Origin: Candidatus Odyssella sp. | Lineage (GTDB): Bacteria; Pseudomonadota; Alphaproteobacteria; Paracaedibacterales; CAITNM01 | NCBI GenBank assembly: GCA_020726185.1 | Contig: DYTB01000002.1 | Coordinates: 3,188 to 67,187 of the forward strand | Length of the DNA stretch: 64,000 nucleotides | Reading direction: 5' to 3' | In this document: piece after piece, positions 10,495 to 62,865 of the stretch | How positions within the stretch are numbered: position 1 is the first letter of the stretch | Layout: each line of letters begins with the position of its first letter | Program-made: the position numbers and the translations under genes | The notes under the pieces: model-generated | Told to the model about the DNA's origin: nothing | What the model saw: the letters and a program-made list of their open reading frames with translations, nothing else | The model's database searches: none

Positions 10495-10704
10495 ATGACA
10501 CTAATTCGCCTATCTATTTTAGCAATAATACTTTTTGCAACAATGTTTGCGCCAATGAGCGCTGCTGCAGTGCCACCAGTTGCAGGGGGAGATGCAAAAG
10601 AAGCAGAAGGTGCAAATGCAGCAAATGACGAAGAAGAAGAAGATGATGATGACGAAGAAGATGAAGAAGATGATGATGGTGACGAAGAAGATGATGATGC
10701 ATAG
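10495..10704 (+). CDS. small secreted polyacidic protein
   Basis: From ATG 10495: MTLIRLSILAIILFATMFAPMSAAA (signal peptide), then NDEEEEDDDDEEDEEDDDGDEEDDDA. Low complexity. The antisense His/Leu ORF is an artefact of the GAA/GAT repeats. Confidence 0.5.
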   Translation: MTLIRLSILAIILFATMFAPMSAAAVPPVAGGDAKEAEGANAANDEEEEDDDDEEDEEDDDGDEEDDDA

Positions 10705-56300: not shown

Positions 56301-57440
56301 TTACGCACCCTCCTTCTTATTCAACAAAGGAATTGGTGTTAACTGATTATAATTTTGCAACGATTTTGACAAATCATGATCTACCACAGTTACATTTGAT
56401 TCTTTCATTAATTGATCCATAAGTTCTCGGTGCATACGAATGCGCGTAATTGTTGGGTTTTTCTTATTTGATTTCAAAACCTGAGTAAATCTTGAAGTTT
56501 CACCTTCCGCACGTGCCACAACTTCCGCTGCATAAGCTTCTGCACCACGTAAAATACTTTCAGATTGACCGCGAGCTTTTGGCAAAATATCGTTACTATA
56601 GCTTTGCGCTTCGTTACTTAAACGATCAGCGTCAATACGCGAAGCTTGCATATCGTTGTACGCATCAACAACCTGTGCTGGCGGTGACACTTTTTGTAAA
56701 CGGAAGCTAGTGATCTGAACACCTGTATTGTAATTATCAAGAATTTTTTGCAGAAGATCCTGAATCTGGTTTCCAATAAGATCACGATCATCTGTTAATG
56801 CTTTTACAGCCGTTGTTTGACCAATAATTTCACGTAAAGCACTTTCAGTAGCAGCTTTAATTGTTGCTTCTGGATTGCGGACCATGAACAAATAATTGGT
56901 AATATCACTAATTTTCCACATGATTGTATAGTTTGTAAGCACCATGTTTTCATCGCCTGTTAAAATAAGGCTTTGATCGGCATCACCATCGTGAGCATTG
57001 CTATCAATTTGATTCACTACAGCTACTTTTTTAACAATTTCATGTTCAATTGGAGACGGCAAACGGTAACGCAAGCCAGGCTGTGCAGTTCTCACCATTT
57101 TTCCAAATCGCAAAACTACAGCGATGGCGCCTTCTTCAACTTTATAAAAACCAGAAGCTGCCCAAACTAAAAGCATTAATCCAAAAATCCCTGCGAACAC
57201 GGTCCATTGACTTTGAGGTGGCAATCCACCCCCTCCTCCGCCGCCAGTTCGCGTTTCCTTGAATCGTCGTTGAAACTCATGAATAACTTTTGAAAATTCA
57301 GGTGGTTGATTTCCAGAAGGCCCACGACCAAAAGGTCCTGAGTCTTCAGTTTTTTTTGGTTTTTTACTTGAGTTAGCGTTATCGCCTTTTACATCCCAAG
57401 GATTATCGTTGTTGTCGTCTACTGGGCTCATTGTTGCCAC
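56301..57440 (-). CDS. hflK: protease modulator HflK
   Basis: Gly-rich N-terminus (GGGGGGLPP), a TM, then VEEGAIAVVLRFGKMVRTAQPGLRYRLPSPIE and an SPFH domain. Confidence 0.92.
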   Translation of the reverse strand: MATMSPVDDNNDNPWDVKGDNANSSKKPKKTEDSGPFGRGPSGNQPPEFSKVIHEFQRRFKETRTGGGGGGGLPPQSQWTVFAGIFGLMLLVWAASGFYKVEEGAIAVVLRFGKMVRTAQPGLRYRLPSPIEHEIVKKVAVVNQIDSNAHDGDADQSLILTGDENMVLTNYTIMWKISDITNYLFMVRNPEATIKAATESALREIIGQTTAVKALTDDRDLIGNQIQDLLQKILDNYNTGVQITSFRLQKVSPPAQVVDAYNDMQASRIDADRLSNEAQSYSNDILPKARGQSESILRGAEAYAAEVVARAEGETSRFTQVLKSNKKNPTITRIRMHRELMDQLMKESNVTVVDHDLSKSLQNYNQLTPIPLLNKKEGA

Positions 57441-57574
57441 AGATCCTTATAGTGTGCTCATGCAATTCATGATAGGGAAGGATTAGCAAAAAGCAAAGAG
57501 GGTTTGCGCTTTTATTTTTACACCTAAAAAGCAAAGATGGGCTATACTCAGCCCAAAATAGATATAACAAAATT

Positions 57575-58387
57575 ATGCGCATTCTTTTTTTAGGTGATGT
57601 TTTTGGTCGCAGTGGCCGTGATGCTGTAGCAAAACACCTGCCAATGCTAAAACAAAAATATAAACCGGATTTTACTATTGTTAATGGGGAAAATGCCGCC
57701 CATGGGTTTGGTCTGCTGCCTGACATGGCTAAGGATTTTTTATCAATGGGAATTGATATTATCACCGGTGGTAACCATAGCTTTGATAAAAATGAAATTA
57801 TTGCATTGATGAGCCAAACCGATAAAATTTTACGCCCTCTAAACTACCCCAAAGCCGTTCCTGGTAAAGGGTTTGGCCTGTACACAAGCAATGGTAAAAC
57901 GTTGCTAGTGATAAACGCGATGGGTAGATTATTCATGGAACCGTTCCTAGAGTGCCCGTTTATGGTTGTGGAAGAGGTTTTGAAGCGCTATCCGTTAGGT
58001 GGGTCAATATCTGCTATTTTTGTGGATATGCACGGGGAAGCAACATCCGAAAAAATGGCGCTAGCTAAATATTTTGATGGGAAAATTACTGCTGTGGTTG
58101 GTACCCATACTCACATACCAACGGCAGATGCGCACATTATGAAAGGTGGCACCGCCTATTTAAGTGACGCTGGCATGTGCGGTGATTACGATTCTGTAAT
58201 AGGCCTGAAGCCCGAAACAGCCCTAGCTAGTTTTTTCAAAAAAATCCCCAAACCAAAAAACAAGGAACCAGCATCTGGCGAAGGAACCGTGTGTGGTGTG
58301 TTCATTGAAAGTGGCCCAAATGGTCATGCAACTGCCATTGAGCCAATTCGGGTTGGGCCAGTGCTGATGAATGAATGTAGAAACTAA
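57575..58387 (+). CDS. ymdB: YmdB-like metallophosphoesterase (2-prime,3-prime-cyclic-nucleotide phosphodiesterase family)
   Basis: MRILFLGDVFGRSGR, VNGENAAHGFG, ITGGNH, FVDMHGEATSEK and VVGTHTHIPTAD motifs. Confidence 0.85.
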   Translation: MRILFLGDVFGRSGRDAVAKHLPMLKQKYKPDFTIVNGENAAHGFGLLPDMAKDFLSMGIDIITGGNHSFDKNEIIALMSQTDKILRPLNYPKAVPGKGFGLYTSNGKTLLVINAMGRLFMEPFLECPFMVVEEVLKRYPLGGSISAIFVDMHGEATSEKMALAKYFDGKITAVVGTHTHIPTADAHIMKGGTAYLSDAGMCGDYDSVIGLKPETALASFFKKIPKPKNKEPASGEGTVCGVFIESGPNGHATAIEPIRVGPVLMNECRN

Positions 58388-59076
58388 AAGTGTACAAACA
58401 ATTCTTTGCTATGCTGCTTTAGCCATTTTTGAAGGTTTTTATAATCGGGGCAAAGCTGTTCAACATGGGCCCAGAATTTTTTGCTATGGTTCATTTCCTT
58501 TAAATGGGAAACTTCATGGGCACACAAATAAGCCAGCACTGGTTCTGGTGCTAGGACCACACGCCAACAATAGTTTAAGTTTCTAAAGGATGAGCAACTA
58601 CCAAAGCGGGTTTTCATATCTTTAATAACAATTTGGTTAATTTTAACACCTAGCACTGCTGCGTATTCATGGCTGTAGTGGGAGAATTTCTCAAGGGCCA
58701 AATCTTTAAGATATTTACTTAATGTCTGTCCAAATTTTGACTGAATTCCATGCACTTCAAGCACATTATCTTTCAGCACTACCATTGATTTGGGGCTTTG
58801 AATAAAATCTACGCGAACGACATTGCCCAAAACTGAAATGCTATCACCAGGGACAATTATGCGTGGTGTTTTTGGTTGGTGAGCGTCTACCTTGGCAAAC
58901 CAAGCATATGCACTATCTATAAAATTGGTGATTTTTGAAAAGGAAAGCAAGCTTGGCGCAGACACAACAAAAGCCTTTTGCTTTTTGGAAAAGCGCAAGG
59001 TTAGCTTTTTCAGAAAAAGCTTTCGCTGAATAAGAACGGTTTTTCCGCACGCAGTGGTGTAGGATTGTGGCTGCAA
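58384..59076 (-). CDS. YgjP-like metal-dependent hydrolase (DUF45, zincin HExxH)
   Basis: LCAHEVSHLKEMNHSKKFW contains HExxH in the DUF45 context. TTG start. Confidence 0.75.
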   Translation of the reverse strand: MQPQSYTTACGKTVLIQRKLFLKKLTLRFSKKQKAFVVSAPSLLSFSKITNFIDSAYAWFAKVDAHQPKTPRIIVPGDSISVLGNVVRVDFIQSPKSMVVLKDNVLEVHGIQSKFGQTLSKYLKDLALEKFSHYSHEYAAVLGVKINQIVIKDMKTRFGSCSSFRNLNYCWRVVLAPEPVLAYLCAHEVSHLKEMNHSKKFWAHVEQLCPDYKNLQKWLKQHSKELFVHF

Positions 59077-59079
59077 TTA

Positions 59080-59496
59080 TTACGCCATTTGCTTATAAGT
59101 AGCAAAGCCCCATTCGTAACCATCAAGGTCACGTAGTTGACAATAACGGTCTCCCCAAAAGGAAGCTTGAGGTTCAGCTAATGACGTTGCGCCATAGTTA
59201 AGGGCTTTCTGATAAAGCTCGTCAACATTCTGGCAATATACATAAATGCTACTGCCGGGTCTGATGCCTAATTGAGCTGGAGTTTTCACATCATCACCAT
59301 TTGCGCCCATTGCAAAAAGCATAAATGTAATTTCACCCAACTTTAGGGTTGCACCGCATACCACACCTTCGTGTTCATGTTTTTCTAAAACTTCAAACCC
59401 AAAAGCTTGGACATAAAAATCAATTGATTTTTGAACATCGCTAACAATAACGCATGGTGAGATTCGTGAATAATTTGGTTGCTTGTAAAATTCCAT
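59080..59496 (-). CDS. VOC (glyoxalase/bleomycin-resistance) family protein
   Basis: 138 aa. The patterns SIDFYVQAFGFEV and FWGDRYCQLRDLDGYEWGF are typical of the VOC family. Confidence 0.8.
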   Translation of the reverse strand: MEFYKQPNYSRISPCVIVSDVQKSIDFYVQAFGFEVLEKHEHEGVVCGATLKLGEITFMLFAMGANGDDVKTPAQLGIRPGSSIYVYCQNVDELYQKALNYGATSLAEPQASFWGDRYCQLRDLDGYEWGFATYKQMA

Positions 59497-59644
59497 GATC
59501 AGCCAGAGCTATGTTTATAAGTCATAGGTAGCGTATTCGGGGAAATTGCTCAAGAAATTATTTATTTGATGACCAAACAGATTAACAGTTTTTTAATAAT
59601 AAAAATGCATAATTAAAATATCATACTCTGACAGAACACATAAA

Positions 59645-60202
59645 ATGTATATATTTCAATTGATTGCCGTCTTATTCCTGGTTGGATGCTCGGCAGATAC
59701 AACAGTTAATAACAAAACTTTTGATGAGCTAATTCAACAATCCACAATTATAGTGCCTGTTAGCAATCCTGAACTTGAGAAAAAACATGAAGCATCAACA
59801 CTGCTAATTTCTTGTGTTGATTTTCGTTTGCGTGATGAAACAGATAAATTAATGGAAACGTATTTGTCACTTTTGGATGACTACGATGAGATTGCCCTAC
59901 CTGGTGCATCGCTAGCACTTGTGCAAATTAAGTATCCACACTGGAGCAAAACTGTTAGAGATCTAATTGGTCTTATAGAAAAATTGCATAACATTAAACG
60001 AGTAATTTTCCTAGATCACCGTGGATGTGGCGCTTATAAGCTTTTACAGGGCAAAGAACATGCCGCCACAAGGGAAAAAGAAACCCATTCCCACAAAGTT
60101 GTTTTTGATAAAGCAAGAGAGATTTTGAAAAAGGAATTTCCAAAATTAAAAGTTTATACCCTTTTAATGGGGTTAGATGGGGTTGTAGAAAACTTTCAAT
60201 AG
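59645..60202 (+). CDS. lipoprotein with beta-carbonic-anhydrase-like ligand motifs (tentative)
   Basis: Lipobox LFLVGCS. SCVDFRL (C-x-D-x-R) and LDHRGCGAY (H-x-x-C) are spaced like the beta-CA zinc ligands and Asp-Arg dyad. Assigned from motifs only. Confidence 0.4.
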   Translation: MYIFQLIAVLFLVGCSADTTVNNKTFDELIQQSTIIVPVSNPELEKKHEASTLLISCVDFRLRDETDKLMETYLSLLDDYDEIALPGASLALVQIKYPHWSKTVRDLIGLIEKLHNIKRVIFLDHRGCGAYKLLQGKEHAATREKETHSHKVVFDKAREILKKEFPKLKVYTLLMGLDGVVENFQ

Positions 60203-60279
60203 ATACTTGAAAATTATCCCCGTTCTTTAGGAACGGGGAAAGTTACTATAATATAACCATGCGCATCAAAAGCTTCTTA

Positions 60280-60570
60280 TTATTCATCAGAGGTTTTATC
60301 TTTGGTAGACAACCATTGGCTGTGCGAATCATCCCAAAACTTTTCAAGCTGATACAAATCAAGAAGAGCGATATAATCACCCATTATACGCTGAAAGTAG
60401 TAATGCTTAATGTATTTGCGTTCAATACCATCCCTACATTTATATTTTAGTGAATTTTCCTGTACCTGCATAAATTCTAAAAGTTTTTTTGCATTAGTAG
60501 CTAAAAAACACTCTTCTGGTAAGTTATTTTGCAAAATATAAAACATTTCTCCTATAGCCTGTACCTGCAT
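60280..60570 (-). CDS. C-terminal fragment of the duplicated/frameshifted gene 60576-61496
   Basis: It begins inside repeat copy 1 and repeats 23 residues of the upstream ORF (IGEMFYILQNNLPEECFLATNAK). It then continues KLLEFMQVQENSLKYKCRDG.... Confidence 0.4.
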   Translation of the reverse strand: MQVQAIGEMFYILQNNLPEECFLATNAKKLLEFMQVQENSLKYKCRDGIERKYIKHYYFQRIMGDYIALLDLYQLEKFWDDSHSQWLSTKDKTSDE

Positions 60571-60655
60571 AAATTCTAAAAGTTTTTTGCATTAGTAGCT
60601 AAAAAACACTCTTCTGGTAAGTTATTTTGCAAAATATAAAACATTTCTCCTATAG
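60459..60655. repeat. perfect tandem direct duplication, 99 bp + 98 bp, differing only by T7 versus T6
   Basis: Copy 1 is 60459-60557 and copy 2 is 60558-60655. Both read cctgtacctgcataaattctaaaagtttttt(t)gcattagtagctaaaaaacactcttctggtaagttattttgcaaaatataaaacatttctcctatag. T-run 60484-60490 is T7 and 60583-60588 is T6. Confidence 0.9.
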
Positions 60656-61496
60656 GCCGCGTGTACATACTTTCTTTGTCAGGATGAATCAATCGTATTC
60701 CTTTCCCAGCAAAAGAATGTAAGTAAATAGACAAAGGCTTACTTAAACGTATTGGTTTAGGATCGGCAAAAGATTGAACTGTTTTAAATATCCCCATATG
60801 TGTTGTTATAGGAAATTCTAAAACCGGAACATTTCGGCATAATAAAATAGATCTAAATGTTTCCATGTGATCAGTTATCGGAATTTCTAAAGTTGTATTA
60901 ACTGTGAAACATATTTGAATTTGTTCAAAATCGATAGCTTCACGGATTTTAGCGGCATGTAATTTTTGACGCGTTACAAAAGCAATCCAACATTCTGTTT
61001 TCTCACTTTGCTTTGCATAATCAAAGAAGTCTGCAAAAGTCCTTGCGGCACTTTCTAAATCACAGAATTTTCTGGATTTCTTCTGTAAATCTTCTTTTCT
61101 ATTTTTCAAATCATCCAACTGCAATTGATAATTTTCGTCAGTATAATTAGCTTTTTCTTTTTTCAGCTCTTTAAGATTGCCCATTAGCTCATATGATTGA
61201 TTTTTCTCACGAACTTCTTGAGATCTAGAAATCTGGTCCATGGAAAATGTTTTCCAACCCTCACAATTTTCAGATGTTACTCTTTCTAAGACAAACGATA
61301 AATCGTAAAGCATGCAGGTAATTCGGTTGTCTGAAACTTTAAATTGATTCGCTTCATCCCGTGTATTTGTTAGGGTTACGCATGCACCCGTCAGCTCTTT
61401 ATTGTCTTTTATTTCCAAATCAAAGCTTGCTACAGCCTCGCAACTCATGGATCCATAAAGCAATGTTGCTATAATTAATAATTTTAAGTCCTTCAT
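60576..61496 (-). CDS. hypothetical secreted protein, truncated inside a tandem duplication
   Basis: Signal MKDLKLLIIATLLYGSMSCEA. Internal repeat LEIPITDHMETF / LEFPITTHMGIF. It ends ...ATNAKNF* within repeat copy 2. Confidence 0.5.
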   Translation of the reverse strand: MKDLKLLIIATLLYGSMSCEAVASFDLEIKDNKELTGACVTLTNTRDEANQFKVSDNRITCMLYDLSFVLERVTSENCEGWKTFSMDQISRSQEVREKNQSYELMGNLKELKKEKANYTDENYQLQLDDLKNRKEDLQKKSRKFCDLESAARTFADFFDYAKQSEKTECWIAFVTRQKLHAAKIREAIDFEQIQICFTVNTTLEIPITDHMETFRSILLCRNVPVLEFPITTHMGIFKTVQSFADPKPIRLSKPLSIYLHSFAGKGIRLIHPDKESMYTRPIGEMFYILQNNLPEECFLATNAKNF

Positions 61497-61656
61497 TTTT
61501 ATTCCATTTTAAAAAATTACCTTTATTAATATGGTTATTAATTTTTGTAATACAAATTATTTTTTTTGGGCTGAGTAAGCAAAGAAAATGGAACATTTGC
61601 GTAGCACAAACATTTTCCAAATTACAAAGATTCTACAAAAGATATAGCAAAAAAAT

Positions 61657-62865
61657 TTATAAAATTAGCAAGCTTAGTGGGTTTTTAATGTAACCTTTTA
61701 AGGCTTTCAAAAATGCAGCGCCAACTGCGCCATCTAAGGCACGGTGGTCAAGCGATAGAGTCAATGTAACCATGTTAGCAGCAACAATGTTTCCGTTGCG
61801 CACAACGGCACGCTGTTCACCTGCACCTACCGCTAAAATACAAGCCTGAGGTGGGTTGATGATTGCATCGAAATGTTTAATGCCATACATGCCAAGGTTT
61901 GAAATGGTAAAGCTACCGCCTTGGTAAGCTTCTGGTGGCAACTTCCCTGCCCTAGCTTTTTCAGCCAGGTCTTTCACTTCAAGACTAATTTCGTTCAAAG
62001 ACTTTAGGTTTGCAGCTTTTACGATAGGAGTAACCAATCCGCCATCAATGGCAACTGCAACGCAAACATCTGCTTGGGTATAACGACGAACGTAATCACC
62101 ATGGAAAGTCACGTTTGCATTAGGTTCATCTATAAGGGCAAGTGCTGTTGCTTTAACAACGAAGTCATTCACTGATAGTTTGACTTTAGCGTTCGGCATT
62201 GCGTTTAGCTTTGTTCTAAAGCTGAGCAATTCGTCTAGCTCGCAATCAATAGTTAGGTAAAAATGTGGAATGGTTTGTTTGGCATCTGTTAGGCGTTTGC
62301 CAATGGTTTTGCGCATACCGTTAAGTTTAATGTCTTCAAATCCGCTGTCAGAATAGGTAACAGGCGTTAAAGGGCTCCTTGTGTTTTCCACATCGCTTTT
62401 GATAATGCGACCATGGGGGCCAGAACCATGAACTTGGTTCAAATTAATACCTTTTTGTGTAGCAATTCTTTTAGCCAATGGGCTTGCAAAAACACGCGCA
62501 CCTTGAGTTGGAGCAGTTGATGCAGCAACATTTGCTTTTATTTCAATTGGAGCATTTTCAGGTTTTGCCATAGGTTGAGGCTGCACAACAGCAACGGGAA
62601 TATTAATGGCAGATGCGTCTTCGCCGTCTTCTAATATAAGGGCAATAAGGGAATTCACCTTAACGGCATCGGTACCTGCTGGAATAACGATTTTTCCAAG
62701 GGTACCTTCATCTACTGCTTCAACTTCCATAGTTGCTTTGTCGGTTTCAATTTCGGCAATAACTTCGCCAGCTTTGATTTTGTCCCCTTCATTTTTCAAC
62801 CATTTAACCAGGTTACCTTCGGTCATGGTTGGGCTTAGGGCGGGCATCAAAACTTGGATTGGCAT
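61657..62865 (-). CDS. pdhC: pyruvate dehydrogenase complex E2 (dihydrolipoamide acetyltransferase)
   Basis: Lipoyl domain [18 protein letters not shown]...[12 protein letters not shown], an E3-binding domain and the catalytic [10 protein letters not shown]. Confidence 0.92.

What the first reader, a model, noticed from the sequence alone, without database searches (positions are those of the whole stretch)
60459..60655. Perfect 99/98-bp tandem duplication inside a secreted ORFan gene; a T7/T6 difference splits the gene
Two adjacent copies (60459-60557 and 60558-60655) are identical except for one T in a homopolymer (T7 at 60484-60490 versus T6 at 60583-60588). On the coding (minus) strand, the first-read copy has A6. 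That gives ...ATNAKNF-stop and ends ORF 60576-61496. The second copy has A7 and reads ...ATNAKKLLEFMQVQENSL..., continuing to 60280. A 99-bp unit is 33 codons, so the duplication itself was in frame. With A7 in both copies the gene would be one ~400-codon ORF with a 33-aa repeat (IGEMFYILQNNLPEECFLATNAKKLLEFMQVQA). The zero divergence implies a very recent event, an assembly artefact, or an unstable repeat. Together with the homopolymer it could act as an on/off (phase-variable) switch for a surface or secreted protein.
Basis: seen in the sequence. Interest (0 to 1): 0.6.

Follow-up and report, generated by a model that had tools for sequence, protein, structure and literature searches.

The report
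Fresh duplication breaks an endosymbiont gene
A perfect 99-base tandem duplication plus a one-base loss really is present and cuts short a dispensable, probably exported protein gene in a protist-endosymbiont genome, but it looks like ordinary recent gene decay, because related strains have lost or broken the same gene in other ways.

Summary
Bases 60459-60557 (99 nt, T7) and 60558-60655 (98 nt, T6) are identical apart from one T. They split a minus-strand gene into a 306-aa ORF and a 96-aa ORF.

It is not an assembly artefact. Two other assemblies are identical across it, and a fourth data set's contig stops where a k=31 graph would break on entering the repeat.

The gene is not an ORFan. Intact single-copy 376-aa orthologues sit at the same place (between pdhC and a carbonic-anhydrase-like gene) in Candidatus Finniella-like genomes. 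96 remote homologue clusters define an uncharacterised family whose model weakly resembles GNAT acyltransferases.

The duplicated 33 residues lie in the confidently modelled conserved core. The truncation removes four strands and the last helix.

The A7 run is a recent creation (a relative has GAAAAA) and is one of 65 such runs in the window. No A-run or copy-number variant was found.

Relatives carry IS30-family insertions at two sites in this gene, or lack it entirely. Its dN/dS is 0.45-0.50, against 0.01-0.10 in neighbours.

Best reading: a very recent loss-of-function allele of an accessory gene. A reversible switch is mechanistically possible, because collapse of the repeat would usually restore the gene, but nothing found here supports it.

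The parts
60558..60655 (-). Copy I of the duplicated unit (read first; 98 nt; A6 on the coding strand)
60459..60557 (-). Copy II of the duplicated unit (99 nt; A7). It reads on in the ancestral frame to the native stop codon.
60583..60588 (-). A6 run (T6 on the + strand): the one-base loss that shifts the frame. The coding context is GCA AAA AAC TTT TAG.
60484..60490 (-). A7 run in copy II. This is the state seen in the single-copy relatives L020 and L013. L003 has GAAAAA, so the A7 run is derived.
60576..61496 (-). Truncated ORF of 306 aa. It has a signal-peptide-like N-terminus, a coiled coil and most of the conserved core, but lacks the C-terminal 66 aa.
60280..60570 (-). 96-aa ORF holding the rest of the gene, now out of frame. 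Its ATG lies 5 nt after the upstream TAG. It matches the family profile at E=4.6e-13.
61428..61496 (-). Codons 1-23, MKDLKLLIIATLLYGSMSCEAVA: a Sec-type signal-peptide-like segment. This is read from the sequence; no predictor was run.
   Evidence: hydrophobic N-termini are common across the family
60217..60239 (-). Terminator-like hairpin shared by the converging target gene and carbonic-anhydrase-like gene. In strains without the gene it directly follows the pdhC stop codon.
60753..60890 (-). Older, diverged in-frame internal duplication of 23 codons (LEIPITDHMETF... / LEFPITTHMGIF...)
60813..60823 (-). TTTTAGAATTT: the site where relatives (L021-23, L030, L032-36) carry an IS30-family insertion with a 3-bp TTT target duplication
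60255..61672 (-). The whole gene with its upstream region. This stretch is absent from strains that carry the carbonic-anhydrase variants P0222, P0228 and P0229.

Best explanation
This is a very recent loss-of-function allele of an accessory gene in a Candidatus Finniella-like (Paracaedibacteraceae, Holosporales) endosymbiont of protists. The gene encodes a protein of about 372-376 aa with a signal-peptide-like N-terminus, from an uncharacterised family whose model weakly resembles GNAT-fold acyltransferases.

Shown:
- An exact 99-bp (33-codon) stretch of the conserved core was duplicated in tandem, with a blunt junction.
- The upstream copy has one A fewer in an A7 run that arose in this lineage through a G-to-A change.
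- Translation therefore stops two codons later, giving a 306-aa product without the last 66 residues.

Inferred:
- The truncated product is probably inactive, because in the model of the orthologue the missing part is four beta-strands and the C-terminal helix.
- The 33-residue insertion into the core may itself already have been damaging.
- The two lesions arose either in succession (duplication, then slippage under relaxed selection) or in one error-prone repair event.
- The allele persists because the gene is dispensable in this clade.
For: The feature is real:
- Two assemblies are identical across it, and a k=31 contig from a fourth data set breaks exactly at entry into the repeat.
- The window is 89% coding, and 40 of its 65 A/T runs of 7 or more lie inside intact long frames, so homopolymer errors are not rife.

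The ancestral state was a single copy:
- Syntenic 376-aa orthologues P0001 and P0003, and the partial P0006, have one copy.
- A7 is derived.

Where the damage falls:
- In the AF2 model (pLDDT 86, pTM 0.82) the duplicated residues 286-318 form a helix, a strand and a helix in blocks with pLDDT 94-98.
- They start right after the near-invariant P285 and include the invariant M289.
- The lost C-terminus is conserved in the family.

The gene is dispensable and decaying across the clade:
- IS30-family insertions occur at two different sites in relatives.
- The whole gene is absent in the three commonest carbonic-anhydrase-variant lineages.
- dN/dS is 0.45-0.50, against 0.01-0.10 for six neighbouring genes.

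No sign of a switch or of recoding:
- The intact 372-aa and 405-aa alleles of this strain are not in the protein collection.
- There is no stimulatory RNA structure after the A_AAA_AAC site.
Against: - Reads could not be examined, so a minority of revertants in the population cannot be excluded.
- Only four data sets hold this strain, and they may come from one site.
- The 306-aa product keeps every strongly conserved motif up to ...ILQNNLPEE, so residual function is possible.
- dN/dS below 1 and intact orthologues show that the gene is useful in some lineages.
- Loss of function is inferred from a predicted structure of an orthologue. It has not been measured.
Confidence: 0.72

Rival explanations
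1. Reversible ON/OFF switch. The duplication with A6 is the OFF state. Collapse of the tandem repeat, or +1 slippage in the A6 run, restores an ON allele, giving population-level phase variation of an exported, host-facing protein.
For: - Geometry: the A run lies at about positions 67-73 of the 99-nt unit. Any deletion crossover in the first two thirds or so of the unit would join copy I's 5' part to copy II's A7 and recreate the intact 372-aa gene exactly.
- Precedent: tandem duplications inside cap3A switch the pneumococcal capsule off, and their reversion switches it on (Waite et al. 2001, as described in PMC11163986).
- The gene evolves fast and is mosaic, as host-facing genes often are.
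Against: - All four data sets of this strain show the same state.
- The intact alleles are absent from 15 billion proteins.
- A7 is an ordinary run length here and is not conserved among relatives.
- No other duplication alleles were seen. Relatives carry IS insertions or lack the gene.
Confidence: 0.1
2. The allele still functions, in one of two ways. Either the exported 306-aa fragment is enough by itself (possibly with the 96-aa ORF made by reinitiation 5 nt after the stop), or occasional -1 ribosomal or transcriptional slippage at A_AAA_AAC yields a full-length 405-aa protein.
For: - ORF1 keeps all the strongly conserved motifs.
- The TAG and the next ATG are 5 nt apart.
- A -1 shift at A_AAA_AAC would enter the downstream frame (sequence). 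This heptamer is a known slippery site (PMC5009743).
- The lineage already tolerates an older 23-codon internal duplication.
Against: - The 96-aa piece has no signal peptide, so it would stay in a different compartment from an exported ORF1 (inference).
- In the model the missing C-terminus supplies four strands of the core.
- In E. coli A_AAA_AAC is much less shift-prone than A_AAA_AAG, and the transcriptional slippage described in the review involves runs of 9 A or T (PMC5009743).
- No downstream structure: MFE -6.5 kcal/mol, z=+2.0.
Confidence: 0.1
3. Assembly or sequencing artefact. The gene is really single-copy, or both copies really have A7.
For: - These are metagenome-assembled sequences.
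- Exact repeats and homopolymers are classic sources of error.
Against: - Contigs of 92.7 kb (taken to be the window's source), 30.9 kb and 3.3 kb from separate assemblies agree base for base.
- A k=31 Logan contig ends exactly where a repeat that starts at 60459 would create a branch.
- The novel junction and the A6 k-mers must be present in the reads. This is an argument from how de Bruijn assemblers work.
- The other genes in the window are intact.
Confidence: 0.03

Closest known systems
Gene inactivation by small tandem duplication and homopolymer frameshift in host-restricted bacteria (ordinary pseudogene formation)
   Same: An in-ORF lesion of zero age, a frameshift at an A run, an intracellular-symbiont lineage, and independent inactivations of the same gene in relatives by IS insertion or whole-gene absence.
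   Different: The genome region is otherwise gene-dense and intact (89% coding). The gene remains intact in some sister lineages.
Duplication/reversion phase variation of pneumococcal capsule genes (cap3A; Waite et al. 2001, cited in PMC11163986)
   Same: A perfect tandem duplication inside an ORF gives an OFF allele, and precise loss of one copy could restore the gene.
   Different: Here the duplication is in frame and the stop comes from a separate one-base loss. No ON/OFF mixture was seen, nor a set of different duplications. Reversion has not been shown.
Homopolymeric-tract contingency loci (slipped-strand phase variation)
   Same: A homopolymer inside an ORF whose length decides the reading frame.
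   Different: The tract is only 6-7 A, one of 65 such runs in 64 kb. It is not conserved among relatives and shows no length variation among data sets.
Frameshifted genes rescued by slippage: poly(A) transcriptional slippage in Buchnera and Blochmannia, and -1 frameshifting at A-rich heptamers (review PMC5009743)
   Same: An A-run frameshift in an endosymbiont gene, with the sequence A_AAA_AAC at the site.
   Different: The run is shorter than the runs of 9 A or T described for transcriptional slippage in that review. No stimulatory structure follows. The rescued product would still carry the 33-residue insertion.
GNAT-fold acyltransferases (LasI, FeeM, GCN5, AAC(6')-Ib)
   Same: The best Foldseek matches of the confident model are all of this fold.
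   Different: No match reaches E<=0.001, and TM-scores normalised to the query are 0.16-0.26. There is no sequence match to Pfam, NCBIfam or PDB. A long coiled-coil insertion and a signal peptide are present. The Q/RxxGxG/A motif is not evident.

Membership tests
Homopolymeric-tract (SSR) phase-variable contingency locus | A repeat tract within the ORF or promoter whose length sets expression | tested here: met
   A6 versus A7 decides the reading frame
Homopolymeric-tract (SSR) phase-variable contingency locus | The tract is unusually long for the genome, and therefore hypermutable | tested here: not met
   The window has 65 A/T runs of 7 or more and 20 of 8 or more in 64 kb, and 40 of the 65 lie inside intact frames
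Homopolymeric-tract (SSR) phase-variable contingency locus | The tract is kept among relatives and varies in length within populations | tested here: not met
   L003 has A5 and L004 has no run; only L020 and L013 have A7. All data sets of this strain are identical. Reads were not examined.
Duplication/reversion phase variation (pneumococcal cap3A type) | A perfect tandem duplication inside the ORF that abolishes the product | tested here: met
   Here, however, the stop comes from the extra one-base loss.
Duplication/reversion phase variation (pneumococcal cap3A type) | Duplicated and reverted alleles coexist, and different duplications arise repeatedly | tested here: not met
   No single-copy allele of this strain is in the collection. 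Relatives show IS insertions or absence of the gene, and no other duplications. Minority variants in the reads are not testable here.
Duplication/reversion phase variation (pneumococcal cap3A type) | Measured reversion that restores function | not testable with these tools
   The organism is uncultured and no reads are available
Recent pseudogene of an accessory gene | Intact orthologues at the same locus, with the lesion specific to this lineage | tested here: met
Recent pseudogene of an accessory gene | The gene is dispensable: independent losses or disruptions, and relaxed constraint | tested here: met
   IS30-family insertions at two sites. The gene is absent from three lineages. dN/dS is 0.45-0.50 against 0.10 or less in neighbours.
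Recent pseudogene of an accessory gene | The product is non-functional | tested here: inconclusive
   In the model the truncation removes four strands and a helix, and the conserved C-terminus is lost. There is no functional assay.
GNAT acyltransferase superfamily (the protein) | GNAT fold | tested here: inconclusive
   The top Foldseek hits are uniformly GNAT-fold proteins (LasI E=3.9e-3, prob 0.99), but none reaches E<=1e-3 and TM-scores are low
GNAT acyltransferase superfamily (the protein) | Sequence membership, or the acyl-CoA-binding motif A (Q/RxxGxG/A) | tested here: not met
   No Pfam, NCBIfam or PDB sequence hit. Only a non-conserved S-F-A-G-K-G occurs at LHSFAGKG, where the family consensus is LHSFAAK.
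IS30 family (the element in relatives) | IS30-type transposase, terminal inverted repeats and a 2-3 bp target duplication | tested here: met
   The C-terminal 45 aa match regions annotated as IS30 family transposase; 924 plasmid records have matches, with E-values among those listed from 1e-3 to 0.7. The N-terminus weakly matches HTH_38. The ends match at 20 of 26 positions. The target duplication is 3 bp, TTT. Only the element's ends were seen.

The most novel reading that the evidence does not exclude
The tandem repeat is the OFF state of a duplication-and-collapse switch, like pneumococcal cap3A, that controls an exported, possibly GNAT-like acyltransferase effector in an uncultured protist endosymbiont. 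Because the frameshift sits in the upstream copy and late in the unit, most collapse events would regenerate the exact wild-type gene. The lesion would then be a built-in reversible knockout and not decay.
Probability: 0.08. Interest if true: 0.55.

Novelty: new member of a known kind. Interest (0 to 1): 0.25.

Why it matters
As a finding it is modest. It is a clean, well-dated snapshot of how an accessory gene dies in an intracellular symbiont: an in-frame internal duplication, then a slip in a homopolymer that had only just arisen. The same gene is hit by IS30-family elements or is missing in sister strains.

Two by-products may be more useful than the lesion itself:
- An uncharacterised family of about 100 clusters of signal-peptide-bearing proteins. 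It now has a confident model with weak GNAT-like resemblance, and one member is fused to ankyrin repeats, so it is a candidate host-interaction factor.
- A locus with presence, absence and disruption variants that could serve as a strain marker for lake Finniella-like populations.

Tried and rejected
- **IS footprint.** I considered whether the 99-bp repeat is the target duplication of the IS30-family element that sits 6 bp from the junction in relatives. Rejected: both junctions of the other insertion show only a 3-bp (TTT) duplication.
- **Programmed -1 frameshifting.** No downstream structure follows A_AAA_AAC.
- **Slippage at microhomology.** The junction has none.
- **JGI metagenome-contig scans.** Two scans, for A-run or copy-number variants and for the partner IS junction, found nothing, not even the known JGI contig. 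That collection simply lacks these samples.
- **Protein searches.** The word-indexed search with the 96-aa ORF returned only itself. Pfam, NCBIfam and PDB sequence searches of the protein and its family gave nothing.
- **Structure.** The first AF2 run with 5 sequences was useless (pLDDT 43). The viral fold library gave nothing significant.
- **Paralogues.** No paralogue of the gene is in the window or in the fetched loci.
- **Provenance.** A literature search for the sample identifiers found nothing.

Full report
**1. The observation**

The sequence is as described. Window 60459-60557 (99 nt) and 60558-60655 (98 nt) are adjacent direct copies that become identical when one T is removed from the T7 run at 60484-60490; the other copy has T6 at 60583-60588. 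TRF scores the pair 387. It is the only long-period tandem repeat in the 64-kb window; the others are short acidic or oligonucleotide repeats scoring 110 or less.

The junction is blunt. The base before the unit differs from the unit's last base, and the base after it differs from its first, so the repeat register is unambiguous and there is no microhomology.

On the minus strand the first-read copy carries A6, and the frame runs GCA AAA AAC TTT TAG. This ends a 306-aa ORF (60576-61496). A 96-aa ORF (60280-70) starts 5 nt after that stop and continues through the A7 copy to the native stop. A terminator-like hairpin follows at 60217-60239. One copy with A7 gives 372 aa; two A7 copies give 405 aa.

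**2. Is it real?**

- Two other assemblies contain the same 1361 bp without a mismatch, including the duplication and the A6/A7 difference. They are NCBI GCA_973787335.1 (30.9-kb contig, 8.4 kb identical to the window) and JGI 3300000235 (3.3-kb contig).
- A fourth data set, Logan SRR1560850, gives a contig identical to window 57145-60488. It stops exactly 31 nt after 60458, the last unique base before the repeat. From memory, Logan contigs are built with k=31. That end point is what a de Bruijn contig does when the next k-mer lies wholly inside a repeat and has two predecessors. A branch caused by the T6/T7 difference would end one base later.
- The window is 89% coding, and 40 of its 65 A/T runs of 7 or more lie inside intact long frames, so the assembly is not prone to homopolymer errors.

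I regard an artefact as very unlikely. Reads themselves could not be inspected.

**3. What the gene is**

It is not an ORFan. The word-indexed protein search found 376-aa proteins at 85% (P0001) and 77% (P0003) identity covering the whole reconstructed protein, plus the 306-aa fragment itself. Their contigs show the same neighbourhood: pdhA, pdhB and pdhC (E2), then this gene, a converging Pro_CA_2 carbonic-anhydrase-like gene, glyoxalase, YgjP and YmdB. The only species-representative genome holding it is titled 'uncultured Candidatus Finniella sp.'. That genus of Paracaedibacteraceae (Holosporales) lives in the cytoplasm of cercozoans and ciliates, and its relatives are often recovered from lakes (PMC11909080).

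A profile search of 1.84 billion representative proteins found 96 proteins at E<=1e-3 and 14 at E<=1e-10. None has a Pfam, NCBIfam or PDB sequence match, apart from ankyrin repeats fused to one member. Their alignment shows these conserved blocks:
- L.FV.ER.T..N..FW
- WIAYAT
- IEM..TV.T...P.TTHMGIFR
- LS..LHSFAAK
- K.YMIT.P...M..IL...LP
- a C-terminal ..IDL..LA

Most members begin with a hydrophobic, signal-peptide-like N-terminus. Here it is MKDLKLLIIATLLYGSMSCEAVA|S. That cleavage site is my reading of the sequence; no predictor was run.

With this 51-sequence alignment, AlphaFold2 models the orthologue P0001 with mean pLDDT 86 and pTM 0.82; with five sequences it had failed. Foldseek against the PDB gives no hit at E<=1e-3. 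The best hits are nevertheless uniformly GNAT-fold acyltransferases: LasI at 3.9e-3, then Mom, GCN5, AAC(6')-Ib, FeeM, RimJ and MccE. I take this as a weak lead, not as family membership.

**4. Where the lesion falls**

All relatives have one copy of the unit. The duplicated 33 residues correspond to P0001 286-318. They start just after the near-invariant P285 and contain the invariant M289. In the model they form helix 287-296, strand 302-304 and helix 307-313, in blocks with pLDDT 94-98.

The truncated product lacks strands 314-316, 320-324, 330-334 and 348-351 and the C-terminal helix 352-373. That region is conserved in the family: the 96-aa ORF alone matches the family profile at E=4.6e-13. 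Loss of function is therefore likely, though inferred. The 33-residue insertion may itself have been harmful.

The A7 run is young. L003 reads GCAGAAAAACTT and L004 reads GAGAAAGATCTT; only the closest alleles (L020, L013) have GCAAAAAAACTT. The unit is otherwise identical between the window, L020 and L013.

**5. The population picture**

I used the neighbouring carbonic-anhydrase-like gene as a handle on related strains.

- **Gene absent.** Strains with CA variants P0222 (listed in 91 blocks of the collection), P0228 (62 blocks) and P0229 lack the gene altogether. The pdhC stop codon is followed within a few bases by the terminator hairpin, and window ~60255-61672 has no counterpart.
- **Insertion at site 1.** Strains with P0004-type alleles carry an insertion right after TTTTAGAATTT (window 60813-60823). 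Both junctions were recovered (L021-23, and L030 with L032-36). They show inverted ends, GCCACATTCAAGTTTGAAGTGCAACG and GCCAGGTTCTAAAATGAAGTGCAACG (20 of 26 positions identical), and a 3-bp TTT target duplication.
- **Identity of the element.** One end encodes MRKYHQLTAWERTKIAMLRQS, a weak HTH_38 match. The other encodes ...LNYNTTPRKSLGWMTPQEVFYKNLGNVALQT*. That peptide has tblastn matches in 924 plasmid records, and the listed ones lie under features annotated as IS30 family transposase.
- **Insertion at site 2.** P0007-type alleles, on at least 14 short contigs from many samples, carry the same element after ...GAATTTATGCAGG.
- **Intact.** Full-length genes persist in the L003 and L004-L011 lineages, and a further intact allele is partly seen in L020.

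dN/dS for the gene is 0.45-0.50, against 0.01-0.10 for six flanking genes at similar dS. dS along the gene is mosaic: the window resembles L004 in the first ~60 codons and L003 in the C-terminal half. This points to recombination between alleles.

**6. Interpretation**

The simplest account is a recent inactivating allele of a dispensable, fast-evolving accessory gene: an in-frame duplication, with a one-base slip in a newly made A7 run that either followed it or arose in the same error-prone repair event. The zero divergence between the copies, and the 100% identity of all contigs of this strain, fit a very recent origin.

The phase-variation idea is not excluded, but nothing found here supports it.
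- The run is of ordinary length for this genome and is not conserved.
- Every data set shows the same state.
- The exact intact 372-aa and 405-aa proteins are absent from a 15-billion-protein collection.
- The clade's other alleles are IS insertions and whole-gene absence.

Mechanistically, though, collapse of the repeat anywhere upstream of the A run (about two thirds of the unit) would recreate the wild-type gene. This is the logic of pneumococcal cap3A duplication switching (PMC11163986).

Leaky rescue by -1 slippage at A_AAA_AAC is conceivable but should be weak. The heptamer is much less shift-prone than A_AAA_AAG in E. coli, and the transcriptional slippage described in the review involves runs of 9 A or T (PMC5009743). 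No structure follows the site.

**7. What remains unexplained**

- How the blunt duplication arose.
- Whether the site-2 IS30-family insertion lying 6 bp from the duplication junction is a coincidence. My rough estimate of the chance is about 5%.
- Whether absence of the gene in other strains reflects loss or never having gained it.

**8. Verdict**

The feature is real and was accurately described. The switch interpretation is largely unsupported. The finding is an ordinary, if unusually clean, case of nascent pseudogene formation. Interest is low to moderate. The uncharacterised protein family is the more promising lead.

Noticed in passing
window 60280-61496 (-); proteins P0008-P0100; alignment A4: The gene belongs to an uncharacterised family: 96 representative clusters at E<=1e-3, with no Pfam, NCBIfam or PDB sequence match. 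It has strongly conserved motifs (TTHMGIFR, LHSFAAK, K.YMIT.P...M), and most members have signal-like N-termini. One member (P0029) is fused to ankyrin repeats. The AF2 model is confident (pLDDT 86), and its best fold matches, all weak, are GNAT acyltransferases.
   Followed up: partly
L021-L023, L030, L032-L036 (equivalent to window 60813-60823); L013-L019 (equivalent to window ~60465/60564): Relatives carry an IS30-family element inside this gene at two sites. Site 1 has both junctions and a 3-bp TTT target duplication. Site 2 lies 6 bp from the boundary that forms the duplication junction in the window. The element is not present in the window.
   Followed up: partly
window ~60255-61672; L024-L028, L040, L043-L052: The whole gene and its upstream region are missing from strains with three other carbonic-anhydrase variants. 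There the pdhC stop is followed within a few bases by the shared terminator hairpin. Whether this reflects gain or loss is unresolved.
   Followed up: partly
L013-L019, first ~137 nt: The IS-disrupted P0007-type gene copy has an unrelated upstream sequence that replaces pdhC, starting exactly at the pdhC stop codon. All of these contigs break about 140 nt further out. This suggests the gene sits in another, repeat-flanked context in those genomes.
   Followed up: no
window 60753-60890 (-): There is an older, diverged in-frame duplication of 23 codons (LEIPITDHMETFRSILLCRNVPV / LEFPITTHMGIFKTVQSFADPKP; 37 of 69 nt identical). It duplicates the conserved THMGIF motif. It is present in all Finniella-type orthologues and absent from remote family members.
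   Followed up: partly
window 60280-61496 compared with L003 and L004: dN/dS is 0.45-0.50, against 0.01-0.10 in six neighbouring genes. Synonymous divergence along the gene is mosaic, which indicates recombination between alleles. The 3' end of pdhC is also mosaic (83-99% identity among gene-less strains).
   Followed up: partly
window 47544, 60472, 60571, 60813: TTTTAGAATTT occurs 4 times, against 0.23 expected by chance. Three of the four are in this gene (two because of the duplication). Both IS30-family insertion sites lie at or just after this word, whose complement resembles part of the element's own end (TTCTAAAA).
   Followed up: no
L003 6442-7875; L024 2338-3789: Between the YgjP and carbonic-anhydrase-like genes, some strains carry a 477-483-aa gene with no Pfam match where the window has a 138-aa glyoxalase-family gene (59080-59496). 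This is a second variable spot next to the locus.
   Followed up: no
window 10625-10699: A short GAT/GAA (acidic) codon repeat array. It was the only other notable tandem repeat in the window.
   Followed up: no
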